64,000 nt of DNA, from assembly GCF_000002075.1 (NCBI RefSeq), contig NW_004797449.1, forward strand, positions 408,025 to 472,024, written 5' to 3'. Position 1 is the stretch's first letter. Each line of letters opens with the position of its first letter. The DNA comes from Aplysia californica (taxonomy: Eukaryota). The position numbers were made by a program, and so were the translations under genes. Below, piece by piece: positions 29,976 through 47,987 of the stretch. The notes below the pieces were generated by a model. It was not told where the DNA came from and did not search any database. It saw only the letters and a program-made list of their open reading frames with translations.

Positions 29976-31799
29976 TTTAACAAGGCAATCCACAATATCC
30001 GGATCGGATGCGGGAACAACTTTACTTTAATAATCAAAAAGACCCTAAGTAGGCGCTGTATGTTCAATGCAAAACCAGCCATCAAATTAACTAACGAATC
30101 AAAGAACAGAAAATACACATTTTGAGGCCATTTTACAAGAACAATAACAACAGCACCAATACCCAGCAACACACNNNNNNNNNNNNNNNNNNNNNNNNNN
30201 NNNNNNNNNNNNNNNNNNNNNNNNNNNNNNNNNNNNNNNNNNNNNNNNNNNNNNNNNNNNNNNNNNNNNNNNNNNNNNNNNNNNNNNNNNNNNNNNNNNN
30301 NNNNNNNNNNNNNNNNNNNNNNNNNNNNNNNNNNNNNNNNNNNNNNNNNNNNNNNNNNNTCTCCCACAACTACCGTTCTACCGATAGGCCATAGTAGTAG
30401 CTTAGGCATGCCCGTTTGCGGCTCTGGAAGAAAATTATTATGTGAGAGGGATACAACATGTGTGTGCGAGCGCGCGCGCGCGTGTGTNNNNNNNNNNNNN
30501 NNNNNNNNNNNNNNNNNNNNNNNNNNNNNNNNNNNNNNNNNNNNNNNNNNNNNNNNNNNNNNNNNNNNNNNNNNNNNNNNNNNNNNNNNNNNNNNNNNNN
30601 NNNNNNNNNNNNNNNNNNNNNNNNNNNNNNNNNNAAAACAATCACAGCGGCACAAGAACACATTTTTAGTGCAGGGAAAATAGTGAGATGGAGAAACGGA
30701 GACAGCAGAGAAGGATGTGGTGATAAGAAGACGCATAGTTATTCCCAGTAATGCATTTCTACTACACCCACTTACGTGAATCATGGGTAAATTTTATATA
30801 CTACTACTAGCCGGGCAGAACGTTACACCCCCCCCCCCCCCCCCCCCCAATCCTCTTAATTTGGATCATTTAGGAGGCGGGCTTCCGATCCTGCCTGTCA
30901 GGGCCAACTCGAGCTGAGAGGGATACAATATTATTATGCCAGCAGAAAGACATAGATACTCGATGACAATTTTCTCCCCATTGGAGAATCAAACTCGGGT
31001 CTCCATCGTGCGACAACAAAGCTCCAAACCGCTATACCAGAGTTGTCTGTTCGAGCTGTTCAGTCTTCCTTTGCTTTGTAGCCTGCAACAACAGCAGAAG
31101 CAGTCTTCACAGAAGACTAGCAAAACAGCCTACGATTCGTTTTTGTTTTAGAAAGAGTTTTACGGCACTAACAACACAATAAAGACTTAAGAATAGGTGC
31201 CGAAGATTAGAGGTATTGTTTGTTTAGAAAGGGTTCTACGACGCTCGCAACTGCACAAGGTCATATGAGCGCGCTGATTAAAGGTGTCACACGAGAGTAA
31301 CAAACATAAAAAAAGAAGTTCGGGAGATAAGGACGATACATGATAGAAAAGAAGGAGCAAACCACATTAGAGCACCCGCCAACCACCCACGCCTACGACG
31401 ATTCCATCCCTTCACTTCTGTTAATGACTGGTACTTTAAGTAGCATTGAATACACCATAAAGTGAAGGAGATTAGAGATGCTGTTAAAGGGTAACAAACG
31501 CAGAAAAGGAGGAGGAGAGATAAGGATGACAGACGTTTCACACGGAAGAATTAGCAAACCACACCAGAGCACCCGCCAACCAACCGCTTGTTACTTTTAC
31601 TTTTAGCTTTTGTCGGTCAACGGCAGTAAGATAACGTGGCTAGTGGTAAAATAAAGCAATGCCTTTATTTTCAGTGATGACTTAAATGTGCTCCGTTCGC
31701 TCAGTCGATATCACACTAGACTTGGGAGTGGATGGCCCTGATTCGAATCCCAAACTGGGTGTTTATAACCTCGAATCGTTTTGTGGAGTTTTCAAGGCT

Positions 31800-31970
31800 G
31801 TTTTATTTGTTTTAGTGTTTTACGGCACTCGCTACACAATACGGTCATTAAGTGCCGAATTTTAGAGGTGTTACAAGAGAGTAACAAACACAAAAAGGAG
31901 GGGAGATAAAGGCGATGGATGGTTGATAAAGAAGAAGCACACCACACCAGAGCACCCGCAAACCACCCAC
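31800..31970 (-). mobile_element. Reference copy of the abundant ~170-bp non-tRNA short retroposon
   Basis: Reads gtgggtggtt..cgggtgctctggtgtgg...cggcacttaatgaccgtattgtgtagcgagtgccgtaaaacactaaaac on -; 12-bp TSD gttttcaaggct (31788-31799, 31971-31982). Confidence 0.88.
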
Positions 31971-33109
31971 GTTTTCAAGGCTCTCAACCCATTTTACTCG
32001 GTCATGAGGCGAGCGTTAAAATCGGAGGTCCCGCCTCTGAAATAAGCTGATGTCCTATGGATTGCCTTGATATTGAAGGAAGAATTACTCATTTATTTTG
32101 AATGGAAGTTGAATTATTGTGCATTTAACGGAGGCAGAGGTCGCCTGGTAGCAGAGGTAAAATTGGTGAGAAGATGTCCGTAAAAGTTTGGCCACTTCCA
32201 AAGCTTGAGGGACCTTGAAAACTGCAAATCCATGTCTCTTTTTTTTAAATGCCTTTGACCAACCTTTTTCCAGGAAAAAACACACGAAAATGTGTTTTTA
32301 AATGGATGTAAAAGGTGTCGAGCTAAAAAAAGAAAAACGAATAGAAAAATTCCATTTTCTTCTATTTCATTATTCGGACGAGCACCTGATTTCATAACGA
32401 TGCCTCACACTTCAAATCACTCATGATGGGAGTCTCTCACTTGGCCAGCAAGAGCCAGCACCATCAATGTGTGCCCTCCCCCCATGTGTTTTAAAAAATA
32501 TTTTAATGTAAAGTATAAGTAGTATGAGGTAAGCGTTTTTGTTTTTTTTTGTTTTTTTTCTTCGGCACTGCACTTGCATCCCAAAGAGATCAAGTTTAGT
32601 TTTAGTAAACGGTACTTGCAATACAATAAGGTCAAATAATAGCCAAATGTTACAGGTTTTATAAGGGAGTAACAAACATAAAAAAGGAGGAGAGATCAGA
32701 TGATCAACAGATTCTGATGTTTGATAGGAAATAAGGAGCAAACCACACCAGAGCACCTGCCAACCACCTACAGATAATTACATAAGTGATGAAGATTAGA
32801 GTGAGAGGTGTTATTACATGTACTAGAGAGTGACATACATGATAGAAAGCAAGGAGGAGAGAAAAGTAAAGGACAATAGATGTCTGAAAGGAAAAATAGG
32901 AGCAACCCACACCGGCAGAGCCCCCCCGGCAACCACACCACCCCACATCTCCGATATATGGGTCCAGACAAGGAAGAAATATCTACAAAGAAAACAACAC
33001 AGTGAACAAAAGATGCACTCTTGAATCAGCAGTACAAGTTTAATATGAGTAGTCATGATATATCTACATTGTATGGCATGGCTAATACACATGAGTTAAA
33101 TGAATTTAA

Positions 33110-40200: not shown

Positions 40201-43200
40201 TAAAATCAACACAGAAAAGTATTCTTAAAAGGACGCAAAAGGTGCGAGTCGAGAAGAAAAAATTGGGATAGAAATTGCCAAAAAGACGGAAAAATGTAGG
40301 CTTCTTTGATTTCATAATTTTGATGCCCCCNNNNNNNNNNNNNNNNNNNNNNNNNNNNNNNNNNNNNNNNNNNNNNNNNNNNNNNNNNNNNNNNNNNNNN
40401 NNNNNNNNNNNNNNNNNNNNNNNNNNNNNNNNNNNNNNNNNNNNNNNNNNNNNNNNNNNNNNNNNNNNNNNNNNNNNNNNNNNNNNNNNNNNNNNNNNNN
40501 NNNNNNNNNNNNNNNNNNNNNNNNNNNNNNNNNNNNNNNNNNNNNNNNNNNNNNNNNNNNNNNNNNNNNNNNNNNNNNNNNNNNNNNNNNNNNNNNNNNN
40601 NNNNNNNNNNNNNNNNNNNNNNNNNNNNNNNNNNNNNNNNNNNNNNNNNNNNNNNNNNNNNNNNNNNNNNNNNNNNNNNNNNNNNNNNNNNNNNNNCCCC
40701 CCCCCCTAAATCCCACTACTCACAAAAATTCTCTCCGTCAGATCATCATCATCATCATACTCGTAGTCTCCTTTCTCAGCAATCTCTCGCACACGTCTCT
40801 GAAACTCTTGCTGCGTTTTCAACTTGCGTAGCCGCTCTTGGTCCTGATCAGGAGAAAACAAAGGAGGGTGTCAAAGTCATTTCTCATCAGAAAGGTCAAC
40901 ACAAACTAAAACATCAGTCAGTCATCAGTAACATCAACCAATAAAAAATTCTGTAAATACCACTATCCTAAAACAAAATATTAGAAACAAGCAAATTTGG
41001 TACAGGGAAAAAAAATTCCAGAGTTTTCAGCAGAACATTGGTATACGGAAACGATCTAAACTACACTTTTCTTTCTATGATACTCTCTAGTAACTTCTCT
41101 AATCTTCAGCACTTTTATGACCTAATTTTGTTGCACGTGCCGTAAAACTCTTCCTAATAAACTGAAAGATCAGCCCATAGTTCGGGTACCTGAGGGTTTA
41201 AGTACGGACGGGCCTCCAGCTCTGAGATCTCTTGCTCTCTGGCCCTAAACAGTTCTTCTTGCTCTTCCTCCTCAGCCTTTTCACGAGCGTCCCGATCCCA
41301 CGCCGAACGTGACGAGCCCTCGCTGCGCTCCCGAGGCTTGGGTTTCAAGGCTGGAACAGCTGGCTTCACCTGATGGACATATACAGTTTGACAATGACAA
41401 TCTTTATTCATTTCACAGGGCAAATTTTGTCTTGTCATTTACAATGGGAGTGGATTTTTATAAAGGTTAGGTGCACTCATGCATTCACACAGTAAAAAAG
41501 GACATAAATACATGTATCACATGCGGAAACACCTCTACTCTGTATGCACACATTCATATTTTCTCTCTCTCTCTCTCTTCCTCTCTATCTCTCTCTCTCT
41601 CCATCTCTCTCTCTGTCATTTGTAGCACCATGAGTTCAATGACTTCACTGCAGGCTTCCAACCCTCCCTGTCAGGGCCAATCTGGGCTGAGAGGGATACA
41701 ACTCCCAGAAAAAAAAGACGAGATATTCAATAAAAAAATTTCCCCAACACGGGGAACAAATCAGGGTCTCCTGCTTGTGACAACAAAGAACCCAACCACT
41801 ACACCACAGATGTCTGTGTGAGGAAATGAGAGTGCCTGCATGTACCTGGAAGCCTTGTGACTTGAGAGCGGGGTTGTCGTAGGACTCGTACTCCGACGGG
41901 GGTTGGGGCACCGGAGGGGCCTGGCCGTCGGGGCCCGACGTGGAGTGGACCTCGTTGGCGAAGCCGATGTTCTGGTAGTTGGGATGCTGTAGCTCGGGGT
42001 CTCCATGGTTCGGGTCCGGGGCCACCTGGTAGCCCAGCGGGGAGTCTCTCGTGTCCACTCCAGGGGGGAGAACTCGGGTCAGTGAGTGCTGCTGCTGATG
42101 TTGCTGCTGCTGCTGCTGTTGCGGCTGCTGCTGTTGCGGCTGCTGCTGTTGCTGATAGCGACTGTGCTGTTGCTGTTGGGGCTGATGATACTGTGGCTGC
42201 TGATGTGATGGTTGTGTTGGTTGGAACGTGTTTGGACTGTACCTTGGATTTCCCCTGGGGAAAGACAAAGAAAAAAATATAATTCTTTGTGTAAGGGAAA
42301 AAAACAACAAGCATACATACACTCAAGTCAGAGAAAAACAGGTACCAATTCACGTTAATATATGCTTCCCCAGATGTGTCCTTTACATATATTATATAAC
42401 TATTACACCATTTCATACTGATGTATACCTTATTTGTGTTTTACTTATGTTATATAAATTTTATTCAAACTCATACTAATTTATGCCTCTCCAGATGTGT
42501 GCTTTGCTTTCGGTGTATAACCTTTACACCCCTTCATACAAATCTTCTATGCCTCAACAGATGCACTCTAAGTTTATTACTTTATAACACAACTTTTGTA
42601 ACTATGATACAGATCCTTCCAATAACAATTTCCTCATCAGTTCAAGATTTTCTTCCTCCCGTCCTGCATTCATCTCTCACAATTCCCCTAAAAGTTCTTC
42701 TATTCCATCTCCATCTATCTATGATTCATCACCAATTTCTCCAAATCAGAAACATGTTTTATCTTTCCATCTAGTATCTCAGGAAATCCCCCCCCCCCCC
42801 CCCCCCTCATATTTATTCTACTCTGAGGTATGTTGACAAAATGAGTTAATTCTAAGACTTTAGCCATATGGACATAGATACATCAAATTATAGGTGGAGT
42901 TTGTACATTCCATACGATAAAAAAAATGTTTAACTTGAAGAAAATGGCATCAACTGAACATCTACAAATCTTAACTTATGCTGATTTTCAGCTTACATCT
43001 CCATTCGTGGATTGCGCGAATAAACCCATTTTCTCCTCATATCTCACATTTACTCTGATTGGTCAGAGCAGTTAAAGTAAAGCATCATCCTGAAATGCCT
43101 CATGAGGATGTGGGCTTGCTAACTTCTTCAAAGCCCAGTCAGGGACACCCAACATTAGATTATTTCTTTTTTTATTATTATAGCAGAGGGTTTTACGGCG

Positions 43201-46200
43201 CTCGCAACTGCATAAGGTCATAATGAGCGCCAAGGGGTGGGTGTCAACAGAGAAGTCTTTACAGGGAATCAGACTTACTCTGCTCACCTCTCTAGCTTCA
43301 ACAGCACAAGGTCTGCATCAACTATCAAGGCACCCCGGAAATAGCAGGTCACAAGAGTGACAAACATACAAAAGAAGTAGAGGAAAATGACAATGAGCGT
43401 GACATGAATGAGCCCATTTACAATTCTACTGTGCTTGAACGAGAAATGTCCCCCTTTGGGGAATGGCCTAAAGACACTACAGTCAGTGGCACTGCCCTGG
43501 GGGAAAACATTAGATTAGACAACAAACAAAAACTACATCAAGCGTGACAGGTTTAGGTGTAGTGTACTTGATAAGGCAAAGCTTTCAAATTCACAATTTC
43601 CAAATCTGGGGCAGTCCCAGACAATTCATGACAACTCGCTCCCTCAGAATTACATAGTTCAATCAGACATTTTATGCCGTTTCGAGTTATTAGGACAATT
43701 AGGTCAGTAACCAAATGTTCTATGTGTTCTTTCAAAATTATCAGATTATTTGAAGTCATAATCAAGATATTAAAAGAACTGCATTTGAAAAAGTTTGACA
43801 TGATGTGAAACTCAAAATTTTGTACTTCAAATTTCTCAAATCAAGGTATTGCGCAAACAGAATTTTGTACTTCTGAGGCTGGCAAGTCTAAGGCTGTCAT
43901 CTGCGACGGCGTGAGGCCTACCTGCTGTCAGTGGCCAGGTACTGGTTGGTGGCATTGATGTGCTCCATCAACTTCTGCTGTTCCTCCGCCAGCTTCTTCT
44001 CCACCAGGTCCTCCTGGGAGGGTGGGGGAGGGAGAGGAGGGAGCTCCTCCTGGTAGTCCTCACCGTGGCCAGGGCTGGGCAGCTCCGTATGGCTCGGGGG
44101 AGGCGGCAGGTCCTGGGGGTAGCCTCCGTACGATTGCTGGTTCGGATCTTGACGGAAGCTGACGTTCTGTTGTGGGGCGTTTCTTCCCTGGCGAGGGTCA
44201 GGGTAGTGTGGAGATGGTACGTTGCTATTATTAGCACCGCCGCTGCGCATGTCAGGCTGCTGCTGCTGGTAGCCTCCTCCTCCCCGCTGAGGCTGCTGTT
44301 GAACATTGCGTGGGTCGGTCATAGTCCGTGGGTCTACGACGTTCCGTGGGTCGGGAACATTTCGCAAGTCTGTGATGTTGCGAGGGTCGGGCATGTTTCG
44401 GAGGTCATTGCGCGGGTCTGGTATGCTTCGGAGGTCTGGCATAGACCTTGGGTCGTGAACTGGGCCGTTCCTAGGATCCGACATGTTGTTCCGCACATCT
44501 GGCCCATTTCTTGGATCCGACATCATCCTGGGGTCTTGACCGTTCCTGGGGTCTGACATCATTCTTGGGTCCTGACCATTTCTTGGGTCGGACATCAACC
44601 TAGGGTCTTGACCATTCCTGGGGTCCATCCCCTGCCTCGGGTCGTGCTGACCCCGGCTGTCTGGCTGACCCCTCCCTGCTTGCTGTGGGTGGCCCGGCTG
44701 CTGTACCATGTGAGGACTGCCCTGTTGTCCCGCCGGGGACGGGGGTTGGCGGTCGCCGAAGAAGTGGGGCTGCGTCTGCCGGTTGTCCACTCGCATCAGC
44801 GGAACCTCCACAGGGGGTACTCGGGCTTGGTTCCGCTTGGGAGCGATGGCCGGTTTAGGGGCCACTTTGGGCCGCAGTTCGCTGTCACTGGGTGGCCGGT
44901 GCAGCTGATGGAATGCTGGGGAAGGTTCTTGCTGTAAGGGCGCTGTGTTCTCGTAAAAGTTAGGCTGCCGGTTGTTGGCCGTGTTGTTCACCTTCTGTGG
45001 GGGCCCACCACTGCCACCACCACCGCCCGTGGGCTGGCTGAACAGTCGTTGGTGGGCTGTGGGTTTGGGCGGTGGGTTGTGCTGTGGCTGAGGGGGCAGG
45101 TCTCTGGCCTGGGGTCCCACGTTGCTGTAAGGCGGGCTGTTTCCACCCCCTCCTCCCTCATACTTGTCCTGCCACTCTCGCAGTTTGCCCGCCGACACGT
45201 CCTCAGACCGCGGACGGGACGAGGGGGAAGGACCGTCCTGCATCATGCTGTTCACGTCCCGCGTGTGTTGGGGGTCGAAGTAGGCCGACTGGGGCCGCGC
45301 GTCCTTGGCGCTGTTTGAAGATGCCCTCGACGAAACCGACGATCTGTCTGAAGCTCGCTGCTGCGGGGCCTGTTGGGGGGGATAACCCTGTGGACCACCA
45401 CCGCCAGGCGGGTACTGGCTACTACTTCCTCTACCTGGGCCCGGAATGTTCTGTCGGGGATCGGCAAAATTATACCCCTGTTGCTGCTGCTGTTGTCTAG
45501 GGGGTCCTCCGTCGTACGACGAGCGCTCCCCTGACCCTTGGGAGGGCGGGTAGTGGGGCTGGTTCTCGTAATCGTTGGGTCGCAGGTCCTGTCTGCGGCC
45601 CCCCGGGGAGTACTGGCCGTAGCCGGGGGAGGATGGGTGTAGCATGCCCACAGACTGCGCGGGACGCAAGTGGGAGGGCTCACCCGCCGGCCCACTGCGC
45701 GGGTCAAAGTTTGTGTCCACGTGCAGGTTGGAGGTGGACTTGGAGCGTGGGTCCCCGATGTCTCGACGCTGGTAGGGGTCAGACGGATGACCTCCGTGGT
45801 CAGGACCTCTCCGTCTGTTGTCCTGGTCTGAGAAAGAAACAAAAAACGAACAAAGGATCAACACAAGCACTAAGTGTAGGAATATGATATGGATTGAATA
45901 CTTTGCTTTCCACATATAAAAAATTCTGAAAGCAATACTTCACACAAAATATACAAATGAAGAGACAAACTACTTTCAAATTTGGTTAAATAACATTTCT
46001 GTTTTAATAAGAGTTTTATGGCACTTGCAACACAAAATGATCATACAAGAGCCGAAGATCAGAGTTAGAAATCAGCAGTTCCCCATATGCAGTTCAGGCA
46101 CAGTTATAAGCATGACATTGATGAATTAGCCCATTTACAATTCTACTGAGCCTAAGAACATGTTAATGTCCCCCCTTTGGGAATGGCCTTAAGACACTTC

Positions 46201-47987
46201 AGTCAATAGCACCCAAGAGAGTAACAAACACAAAAAAGGAGGAGAGATCAGGACGATAGATTTTGATCGGAAAAAAGAAGAAAACCACAACACAGCACAC
46301 GCCAACACAAATTTCTAAGTCTATGTGTATATCTTGAGTCAAGAAGAGCTGCCTTATCATCATCCTGACATAGGCATTGGTACCTATTCACAGGGGTAAA
46401 AAATGGAATGACAGAACAAATGCACAAGATGAAAAAAAGAGATTCTACTAACCATATCCATTGACAGGTTTGTTATCCAGTCCATCGTAAGGAGGTGGCG
46501 GCCCGTCATCTTTGGCTGCTTTAATCCCACCGGGCCCACGATTGTGGATGGCTGAGGGAAGAAAAAAATACGTGACAAGATAGATGGAGACAGGGAAAGC
46601 TCCAAGGGGTAAAGAATCGACACAGATCTGGTTAAGTCAGTCACTGCTTGTGCGAGACTGAGTGTCTTTGCGCCATAGACTTGAATTAATATCCTAGACT
46701 GGGCACTGTCATGGCTGCCCATAGACTTAAAATATCCTAGACTGGGCACTGTCATGGCTGCCCAAAGACATATAATATCCTAAACCAGGAACTGTCATGG
46801 CCATCCATAGACATGCGTTATAATTTTCTAGACTGGGCACTGTCATAGTTGCCCATAGACTTAATTACAATATCCTAGACCGAGCACTGTCATAGTTGCC
46901 CATAGACTTAATTACAATATCCTAGACCAGACACTGTCATAGTTGCCCACAGACTTAATCACAATATCCTAGACCAGGCACTCTCATGGCCCCCCCCCAT
47001 AGACTTGCACTGTAATATCCTGGACCAGGCACAGTTATGGCCACCCATACATTTGAATTACAATATCCTACACTGGTCCCTGTATTGGCTGCCAAGCCGA
47101 TACTCACCTCTCTGACTGGTGGGCGAAGGTTGACTCAGAAGGTTGCTCAAGTTACAGTAGAAGGCTCCTTGTTTGGCCACCTTCAGACGCACAACCTGAC
47201 CCGTCTTGGTCATCAGTTCAGCTGCCCTGAGACACGAGGTGGGAAAAGCAATTAATTGATCAATAAATAAACAAACAAATAAACAAATAAATAAAATAAA
47301 TTACACTCTGGGGTCATAATGGCAAACAAAAGTACAGCACACAAATATACATACAAAGAATATCAAATACACAATATTACACCATTGCAAAACACTTTTA
47401 AAATCAATACAGATCAAATCCTGGAATTCACACTTTACACATTTCAGTTTAGTTCAAATACAAGCTTTAGTCACTTGCAACACAAATAGGTCATGTATGT
47501 GCTGAAGATTAGGGGAGTTACTAGAGAGTAATAAACAAAGAAAAGAAGGAGGAGATTAGGGGTGTTACTAGAGAGTAATAAACAAAGAAAAGAAGGAGAA
47601 ATAAGGATGTTTTTAGTGTTAGTAGAGGTATTACAGCGCTCACAACTGCATAGGGCCATATGAGCGCCAGAAGATTAGAGCTGTCACAAGAGAGTAACAA
47701 ACATAAAAAGGAAGAAGGGGAGGGAAGAAAGATGTTTGACAGGAAAGAAGCAGTAAACCACACCAGAGCACCCGCCAACCACCCACAGATAAGGATGATA
47801 GATGTTGGATAGAAAAGAAGGAGCAAACCACAGCAAAGCACCCACCAACCACCCACGAAAACTCACTTGTCTTGTGAGAGTCCAATGAGAGATTTCCCAT
47901 CTACCTCCAACAGCTGATCTCCTGCCTGCAATTGCCCATCCTAAATAAGAGAAAAAGAACAACAAAAGTCAATTACTGTTTTTTTAA

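What the first reader, a model, noticed from the sequence alone, without database searches (positions are those of the whole stretch)
31788..31982. Abundant ~170-bp retroposon with no tRNA head, defined ends and a 3' hairpin
Seen: roughly 35-40 full or partial copies by eye. Intact copies share a 5' end (gtgggtggttggcgggtgctctgg), a pyrimidine-rich body, a stem-loop cggcactt-N~21-aagtgccg, then taaaac and a (CTAAAA)-like tail. This copy has a perfect 12-bp TSD and interrupts an older SINE. No pol III A/B boxes are visible. Established: variable-length TSDs with a simple-repeat tail indicate target-primed reverse transcription, and hairpin-plus-taaaac 3' ends resemble I-group (Nimb/Ingi-like) LINE ends. 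Inference: a non-autonomous LINE derivative (5' end fused to 3' end, RIME-like) that may be uncatalogued.
Basis: partly seen in the sequence, partly recalled or inferred. Interest (0 to 1): 0.7.

Follow-up and report, generated by a model that had tools for sequence, protein, structure and literature searches.

The report
Non-tRNA retroposon aligned with host genes
This is a short non-coding jumping element of the sea hare, present in roughly 100,000 copies (an estimate), that lacks the usual tRNA-derived start, ends in a hairpin shared with two full-length LINE families that likely copy it, and inside genes points the same way as the gene about six times out of seven, likely because opposite-facing copies are weeded out.

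Summary
The copy (31800-31970, minus strand) has a perfect 12-bp TSD and splits an older tRNA-type SINE. The host is Aplysia californica. The family ('A') has about 1.1e5 copies, a fixed 5' end (131 of 163 copies) and 11-13-bp TSDs (59 of 173; control 9 of 516). It has no pol III boxes. Its 3' hairpin matches the ends of two intact I-group (Nimb-like) LINE families in this genome. Its head does not match their 5' UTRs, so the RIME-like 5'+3' fusion is unsupported. The head is shared with a sister family, C. New result: inside 52 genes A lies sense 104 times and antisense 17 times, C 67:4, while two tRNA-headed SINEs (26:18, 12:15) and a DNA-type repeat (33:32) show no bias. Target-site base preference does not explain this. 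It works like the molluscan LP-SINEs but with a different head. Repbase and Dfam could not be checked, and a family this abundant may already be named there.

The parts
31788..31799 (.). Target-site duplication, copy at the element's 3' side (12 bp)
   Evidence: single in paralogs of the host SINE
31800..31822 (-). 3' tail: TAAAAC then short (CTAAAA)-like units
31823..31857 (-). 3' stem-loop shared with the 3' ends of I-group LINE families N1 and N2 and with at least three other SINE families of this genome
31858..31946 (-). CT-rich body, homologous to the middle of family B
   Evidence: score 96; shuffle maximum 45
31947..31970 (-). G/T-rich 24-nt head, shared with family C; defines the fixed 5' end; likely promoter (inferred)
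31971..31982 (.). Target-site duplication, copy at the element's 5' side (12 bp)
31691..32056 (+). Older tRNA-type SINE interrupted by the insertion (ends approximate)
   Evidence: 40 of 40 scored places match at 78-100%
31131..31585 (-). Three neighbouring family A pieces in the same orientation (31585-31466, 31390-31219, 31217-31131)
32590..32936 (-). Two neighbouring family A copies in the same orientation
6272..7418 (-). Cluster of six same-strand family A pieces of both subfamilies; 6539-6360 is nested inside an older copy

Best explanation
[quoted passage not shown] Shown: the anatomy, the fixed 5' end, variable TSDs, the shared hairpin, intact partner LINEs, and the sense bias in genes. 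Inferred: (1) LINE-driven TPRT, about 0.9; A-rich TSD starts fit annealing of the tail to the nicked target. (2) The head is an internal pol II promoter module kept while bodies and tails were swapped among families A, B and C, about 0.55. (3) The sense bias comes from loss of antisense copies, whose strand is 64% purine and carries TTTTAG acceptor-like ends, GAA-rich enhancer-like runs and a CATAAA hexamer, about 0.55.
For: 5' starts: 115 of 163 unselected 3'-complete copies begin within 3 nt of the head and 131 within 10 nt. TSDs in 59 of 173 full copies, 47 of 112 among high-scoring ones, mode 11-13 bp, range 8-20; swapped-flank control 9 of 516. In 30 head-anchored copies not chosen for likeness to the focal copy: 13 of 30, control 1%. 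Tail matches N1 (34 of 42 nt, E 2e-6) and N2 (41 of 55 nt, E 2e-5) 3' ends. These LINEs have a 1226-aa endonuclease-RT-RNase H ORF2 and an ORF1 with three CCHC motifs. The stem pairs in 89% of cells against 25-52% when slid, with changes on both sides at 2 of 7 pairs. Pol III is unlikely: no boxes and an internal run of six T. The head is shared by A and C, whose bodies and tails differ. Sense bias: A 104:17, 91:16 as clusters, repeated in two independent gene sets (58:11 and 46:6); 31 genes lean sense, 4 antisense, 3 tie, 14 of 52 had no copy. Introns here are generally asymmetric in the same direction: AATAAA 544 sense to 903 antisense, (TC)n 120:73. Precedent for selection against antisense Alu near exons: PMC3088655 (passages).
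Against: No promoter activity was shown: three poly(A) RNA runs gave no pile-up of read starts, and 86-88% of laid reads ran on into unlike sequence (these reads include other families sharing the tail). Purging alone does not fit the densities: sense-strand head matches in the gene set are twice the genome's per-strand mean (45 against 22.6 expected) while antisense are 6, so enrichment in these genes is also needed. The bias is the same in high- and low-scoring copies (19:3 and 20:5) and persists in a myosin gene with a 53-kb gap between exon hits (14:1), unlike the Alu effect, which is reported near exons. The tRNA-headed SINE with the same tail type is also CT-rich yet unbiased (12:15, small sample). 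The covariation test is modest (11-14 of 500 shuffles as high for three measures, 395-419 of 500 for two) and the rows are related. 114 of 173 full copies gave no TSD by my rule. The Nimb clade label was not tested by phylogeny.
Confidence: 0.6

Rival explanations
1. The element has no promoter of its own; it rides in host pre-mRNA and is inserted co-directionally into transcribed genes, with the first nick on the template strand, so the sense bias is made at insertion.
For: Sense density is twice the genome per-strand mean. A plus C are denser in myosin and kinesin genes than in channel and dynein genes relative to control repeats (128:64 against 64:72, p 0.0004; few genes, germline expression assumed, not measured). 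Same bias at all ages. Only read-through RNA seen. All three N1/N2 LINE fragments found in the gene set are sense, and 12 of 15 N1/N2 3' flanks are T-rich like intron sense strands (interval includes zero).
Against: A tRNA-headed SINE with the same tail type, hence likely the same enzyme, shows no bias (12:15; Fisher p 9e-5 against A). No way to make the fixed 5' end was found: no ribozyme match, whole-element fold z 0.11, and the head start varies among TG, CG and CA in family C, which fits CpG decay better than a GT splice donor.
Confidence: 0.2
2. It is a RIME-like internal deletion of an extinct or unsampled I-group LINE whose 5' end was the A head.
For: I-group tail. The partner LINE 5' UTRs have CT-rich blocks weakly like the body (E 0.001). 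Family B, which shares the body, starts with a C-run as the LINEs do.
Against: Head not found in N1 or N2 5' UTRs. The seven more divergent endonuclease hits I fetched were all N1 or N2 relatives. Of 240 head matches in fetched DNA, 196 continued as A, 27 as C and none of the other 17 as a recognisable LINE (read by eye). Kojima 2018 lists ORF-less bipartite elements only for RTE, Ingi, Vingi and R2 (PMC5786205).
Confidence: 0.12
3. It descends from a longer SINE that lost its head and was spread by a few master copies sitting behind external host promoters; the head has no function.
For: Body shared with the longer family B. Two discrete subfamilies of different age (median identity to consensus 0.92 and 0.96). 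No independent transcript seen.
Against: The same head starts two families with different bodies and tails and persists across subfamilies, which is easier to explain if it is needed.
Confidence: 0.08

Closest known systems
LP-SINEs of gastropods and bivalves (Matetovici et al. 2016, PMC4758252)
   Same: Short, non-tRNA-headed, TSD-flanked molluscan retroposons with terminal tandem repeats, proposed pol II transcription, a CT-rich stretch behind the head, and an ACTAAA hexamer near the end. The scallop element in its supplement ends in a hairpin of the same type with a third stem variant (compared by eye).
   Different: Their head is a ~70-bp piece like the Nimb-17_LMi 5' UTR; the A head is ~25 nt, unlike the scallop head by eye and not traced to any LINE. 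No Aplysia LP family is named in the sections read. No strand bias is reported there.
Bipartite non-autonomous LINEs (RIME, NARTc, Bov-A, Vingi derivatives; Kojima 2018, PMC5786205)
   Same: No small-RNA head, LINE-derived 3' end, likely pol II.
   Different: The 5' end does not come from the partner LINEs found; none is listed for the I/Nimb clade.
Nimb-mobilised tRNA SINEs of molluscs (Meta and V families; Martelossi et al. 2024, PMC11481361)
   Same: Tail homology of 35-61 bp to an I-superfamily LINE, tandem arrays, accumulation in genic regions.
   Different: Those have tRNA heads and conserved core domains; the passages read report no orientation bias relative to genes.
Repbase Aplysia entries (CALSINE series)
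   Same: Same host; CALSINE3 is named in PMC5786205, which implies other numbered Aplysia SINE entries.
   Different: CALSINE3 is described as a CORE-SINE, which A is not. The other entries could not be seen, so identity with one of them is open.
Human intronic Alu orientation bias (Zhang et al. 2011, PMC3088655)
   Same: Sense excess attributed to cryptic splice acceptors on the antisense strand.
   Different: Reported for 20-200 bp from exons and small (47.7% antisense among AluY in the zone); here 14% antisense for A and 6% for C across whole gene bodies.

Membership tests
tRNA-derived SINE (SINE2) | tRNA-like head with pol III A and B boxes | tested here: not met
   No box with up to 2 mismatches; controls gave boxes. 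No tRNA or Rfam match. Internal T6.
Non-autonomous retroposon (TPRT product) | Variable-length TSDs and simple-repeat tail | tested here: met
   59 of 173, lengths 8-20, control 9 of 516
Non-autonomous retroposon (TPRT product) | 3' end shared with an autonomous LINE in the same genome | tested here: met
   N1 and N2 3' ends
Bipartite non-autonomous LINE (RIME-like) | 5' end identical in origin to the partner LINE's 5' end | tested here: not met
   Not met for N1 and N2; extinct or unsampled families cannot be excluded
Plain 5'-truncated LINE copies | Random 5' endpoints within LINE sequence | tested here: not met
   131 of 163 start within 10 nt of the head; body is not LINE 3' UTR
LP-SINE | ~70-bp head homologous to the Nimb-17_LMi 5' UTR | tested here: inconclusive
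   No likeness by eye to the scallop head in supplementary figure S2; the other LP heads are in a main figure that is not held
LP-SINE | No tRNA head, TSDs, terminal tandem repeats, poly(A)-signal-like hexamer | tested here: met
LP-SINE | Transcription by pol II from the head | not testable with these tools
   RNA lay shows no discrete start
I-group LINE (partner) | ORF1 with CCHC knuckles; ORF2 with AP endonuclease, RT and RNase H | tested here: met
Nimb clade (partner) | RT phylogeny with named Nimb references | not tested
   No named reference among the 120 listed homologues; the label rests on architecture, the tail type and recall
MITE or Helitron-derived element | Terminal inverted repeats with fixed-length TSD, or no TSD | tested here: not met
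   Variable TSDs and a LINE-type tail; only the subterminal stem folds
Retrozyme or ribozyme-headed element | Self-cleaving ribozyme fold | tested here: not met
   No Rfam match; fold z 0.11

The most novel reading that the evidence does not exclude
Families A and C are promoterless intron passengers: they are transcribed only inside host pre-mRNA and are inserted co-directionally into transcribed genes by a borrowed I-group reverse transcriptase, a transcription-coupled, strand-specific route of retroposition not described for SINEs.
Probability: 0.17. Interest if true: 0.8.

Novelty: new variant of a known kind. Interest (0 to 1): 0.5.

Why it matters
About 2% of the genome of a classic neurobiology model (1.1e5 copies of ~180 nt, my estimate) is made of an element with no small-RNA head and no traced LINE head, which extends the LP-SINE idea to a new head module that is swapped between families. 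The 6:1 to 17:1 sense bias, set beside an unbiased tRNA SINE with the same tail type in the same introns, is a natural experiment on whether strand bias of retroposons is set at insertion or by selection, and it is directly testable with population data. In practice the orientation of these copies marks the direction of transcription in poorly annotated regions.

Tried and rejected
Rfam on the locus and on five loci with A and B copies: nothing near a gathering score. RNase H-bearing LINEs with other tails (Ingi-like, RTEX-like and one I-like family; labels recalled) do not carry the hairpin at their ends. A GT splice donor as the source of the 5' end: rejected as weak, since head starts vary like a decaying CpG and strong sense donors should be harmful. 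Target-site base preference as the cause of the bias: a 16-position matrix from 166 sites predicts a ratio of 0.89-1.0. Clustering as the cause: same-strand neighbours are common (73 of 80 pairs under 300 bp) but the bias stays after merging clusters (91:16). Kinase hits were mostly single-exon and were left out of the strand test. No RNA holder was listed for the locus; lays of raw poly(A) reads from the same species label showed both strands and no start or end pile-up, and short unpolyadenylated RNAs would be missed. No empty-site allele was seen among the joints shown, which is no proof of fixation. The first structure string was one column off and was corrected. A direct random sample of the genome for intergenic density was not obtained, so the intergenic per-strand density is open. 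Literature searches listed no paper describing this family or its strand bias; the library lacks most subscription papers and Repbase Reports. Three look-ups of earlier scan findings returned nothing.

Full report
Observation. The stretch 31788-31982 holds an element on the minus strand at 31800-31970 between two exact copies of a 12-mer. The flanks belong to an older repeat with a tRNA-like B box; all 40 scored places of a genome search match its left part at 78-100%. Paralogs L312 and L314 align to both flanks across a single 12-mer. The duplication and the nesting are therefore real. A profile finds 44 hits in the window, 15 full-length and 38 on the minus strand; some tail-only hits belong to other families.

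Host and abundance. An ORF of the window is 100% identical to a protein labelled Aplysia californica. The exact 24-nt head occurs 11,612 times in the 927-Mb genome, evenly on both strands, with 0 control matches. A 19-nt form with one mismatch occurs 47,553 times, control 21. Scaling by the ratio of profile hits to pattern hits in the gene set (121 to 51) gives about 1.1e5 copies; this is an estimate. A run labelled as a second organism also holds the element.

Ends. In 1.54 Mb of fetched DNA not chosen for this element, 163 of 225 copies reach the 3' end; 115 of the 163 start within 3 nt of the head and 131 within 10 nt. This sample is not random: it consists of LINE, kinase, family B and intron loci plus the window. 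TSDs of 8-20 bp, mostly 11-13, were found in 59 of 173 full copies against 9 of 516 swapped controls; 114 gave none, more often among old copies (12 of 61 found). TSDs start A-rich (44-53% A at the first three positions), which fits annealing of the tail to the nicked target (inference). There are two subfamilies with different stems, 105 and 43 of 188 full copies, 40 unassigned.

No small-RNA head. No tRNA, no Rfam family, no A or B box, an internal run of six T and no fold beyond the 3' hairpin (z 0.11). Pol III transcription is unlikely on established knowledge of pol III termination.

The partner. RNase H searches first gave LINEs with unrelated tails. A second round gave two families, N1 and N2 (L131-L150), with intact 1226-aa ORF2 copies, endonuclease, RT and RNase H domains and, in the N1 copy examined, an ORF1 with three CCHC motifs. 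This is I-group architecture; 'Nimb' is my label and was not tested by a tree (one search gave no named reference). Both end in the same hairpin followed by GTAAAAC and short repeats. The element's tail matches N1 at 34 of 42 nt and N2 at 41 of 55 nt. In an 18-row alignment of A, B and LINE tails the 7-bp stem pairs in 89% of cells against 25-52% when slid; the shuffle control is modest and the rows are related. A scallop SINE in the supplement of PMC4758252 ends in a hairpin of this type (by eye).

The head. N1 and N2 share a different 5' end that starts with a C-run and a 9-bp hairpin. The A head scores no better than shuffles against either 5' UTR. Seven more divergent endonuclease hits were all N1 or N2 relatives. 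Of 240 head matches, 196 continue as A, 27 as a shorter family C with a different body and an N1-like loop, and 17 as neither, none recognisably a LINE. The CT-rich body is homologous to the middle of a 400-nt family B that has the N2-type tail. The picture is modular exchange of head, body and tail, as described for molluscan SINEs in PMC4758252. The RIME-like reading is not supported by the partners found.

Strand bias. Most copies in the window run with the minus-strand afadin-like gene (DIL domain; the gene name is recalled); the focal copy lies about 4.3 kb beyond what appears to be its last coding exon. To test this I fetched 93 stretches (883 kb, 740 kb non-N) from 52 myosin, channel, dynein and kinesin genes, oriented by exon hits. 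Most lie between exon hits; several dynein stretches extend past the last hit and are assumed intragenic from protein length. Sense to antisense: A 104:17 (58:11 and 46:6 in the two sets), C 67:4, B 22:8, a CORE-type tRNA SINE 26:18, a tRNA SINE with the same tail type 12:15, a DNA-type repeat 33:32, a second small repeat 6:9. A differs from the pooled tRNA SINEs (Fisher p 1.4e-5). Head-pattern matches are 45 sense and 6 antisense against 22.6 expected per strand from the genome mean. Target-site composition predicts a ratio near 1. Repeat-masked flanks of 59 sequence-chosen copies are T-rich on the element's strand (skew 0.063, interval 0.029-0.095), close to intron sense strands (0.074), which suggests that the bias holds genome-wide; flanks of LINEs are also slightly positive with intervals that include zero.

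RNA. About 1 in 1,000 reads of three poly(A) runs lay on a young copy, on both strands, with 86-88% running on into unlike sequence and no start or end pile-up. These counts include other families that share the tail. This shows read-through of embedded copies and neither shows nor excludes an independent transcript.

Mechanism. I commit to pol II transcription from the head, copying by an I-group ORF2 through the hairpin, and purging of antisense intronic copies on top of accumulation in gene-rich DNA. The first and third steps are inferred at about even odds. The two-fold sense enrichment, the age-independence and the persistence far from exons count against pure purging and keep a transcription-coupled insertion route alive; the unbiased tRNA SINE with the same tail type counts against that route.

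Comparison and what I read. PMC4758252: passages, section 10, part 1 of 2 of section 9, part 1 of 5 of the supplement PDF and term searches; figures not seen. PMC5786205: parts 1-4 of 5 and a supplement search with no hit. PMC11481361, PMC3088655, PMC5804259 and PMC9989829: passages only. The element works like an LP-SINE but is not shown to be one. Nine literature searches listed no description of it. Repbase holds Aplysia SINE entries that I could not see, and I put the chance that A is already named there at about one half. The strand bias against unbiased controls is the part least likely to be on record.

Verdict. Real; a new variant of a known kind; interest 0.5.

Noticed in passing
L224 (G000:C479:16500-26499) near 7550; window about 7480-7575 and 48741: Family C, about 140 nt: same head as A, different CT-rich body, N1-like hairpin loop and (CAAA)n tail; 67:4 sense in genes.
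   Followed up: partly
window 7572-7766 and 43173-43384, minus; L062-L080: Family B, about 400 nt, young (the 40 best hits are 99-100% alike over 141 nt), starts with a C-run, no B box, shares A's CT-rich body and the N2-type tail; head not traced. A second candidate non-tRNA retroposon.
   Followed up: partly
L131-L150: Two intact I-group LINE families with 1226-aa ORF2 (58% identical over the endonuclease region) that share nearly the same first ~40 nt; L134, L136 and L266 carry a duplicated or swapped 5' UTR, and L136 has an N1 UTR in front of an N2 element.
   Followed up: partly
L137 (G000:C221:853000-862000) and beyond: The 3' 1.5 kb of an N2 LINE is repeated head to tail; RNase H hits at four places about 1,564 bp apart.
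   Followed up: no
L132 3' UTR, about 70 nt before the end: N1 carries a second, degenerate half copy of the tail motif upstream of the terminal hairpin.
   Followed up: no
window 6272-7418, 47437-47856: Copies inserted into or next to earlier copies in the same orientation, including different subfamilies; 73 of 80 close pairs in all fetched DNA are same-strand.
   Followed up: partly
window 13048-14592, plus: Broken ORFs resembling a hAT-type transposase (zinc-finger-like start and ETRWNST motif; label recalled).
   Followed up: no
window 3133-6242, plus: Adhesion-type GPCR gene (7tm_2) with a long final exon; the A pieces at 2185-3246 run in its sense direction.
   Followed up: partly
window 6300-64000: The DNA-type control repeat lies 6:0 on the minus strand in this window although it is unbiased (33:32) in the gene set.
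   Followed up: no
L211-L263, L271-L310: General intron strand asymmetry: 88 of 93 stretches are T-rich on the sense strand; AATAAA and CATAAA are depleted and pyrimidine microsatellites enriched on the sense strand.
   Followed up: partly
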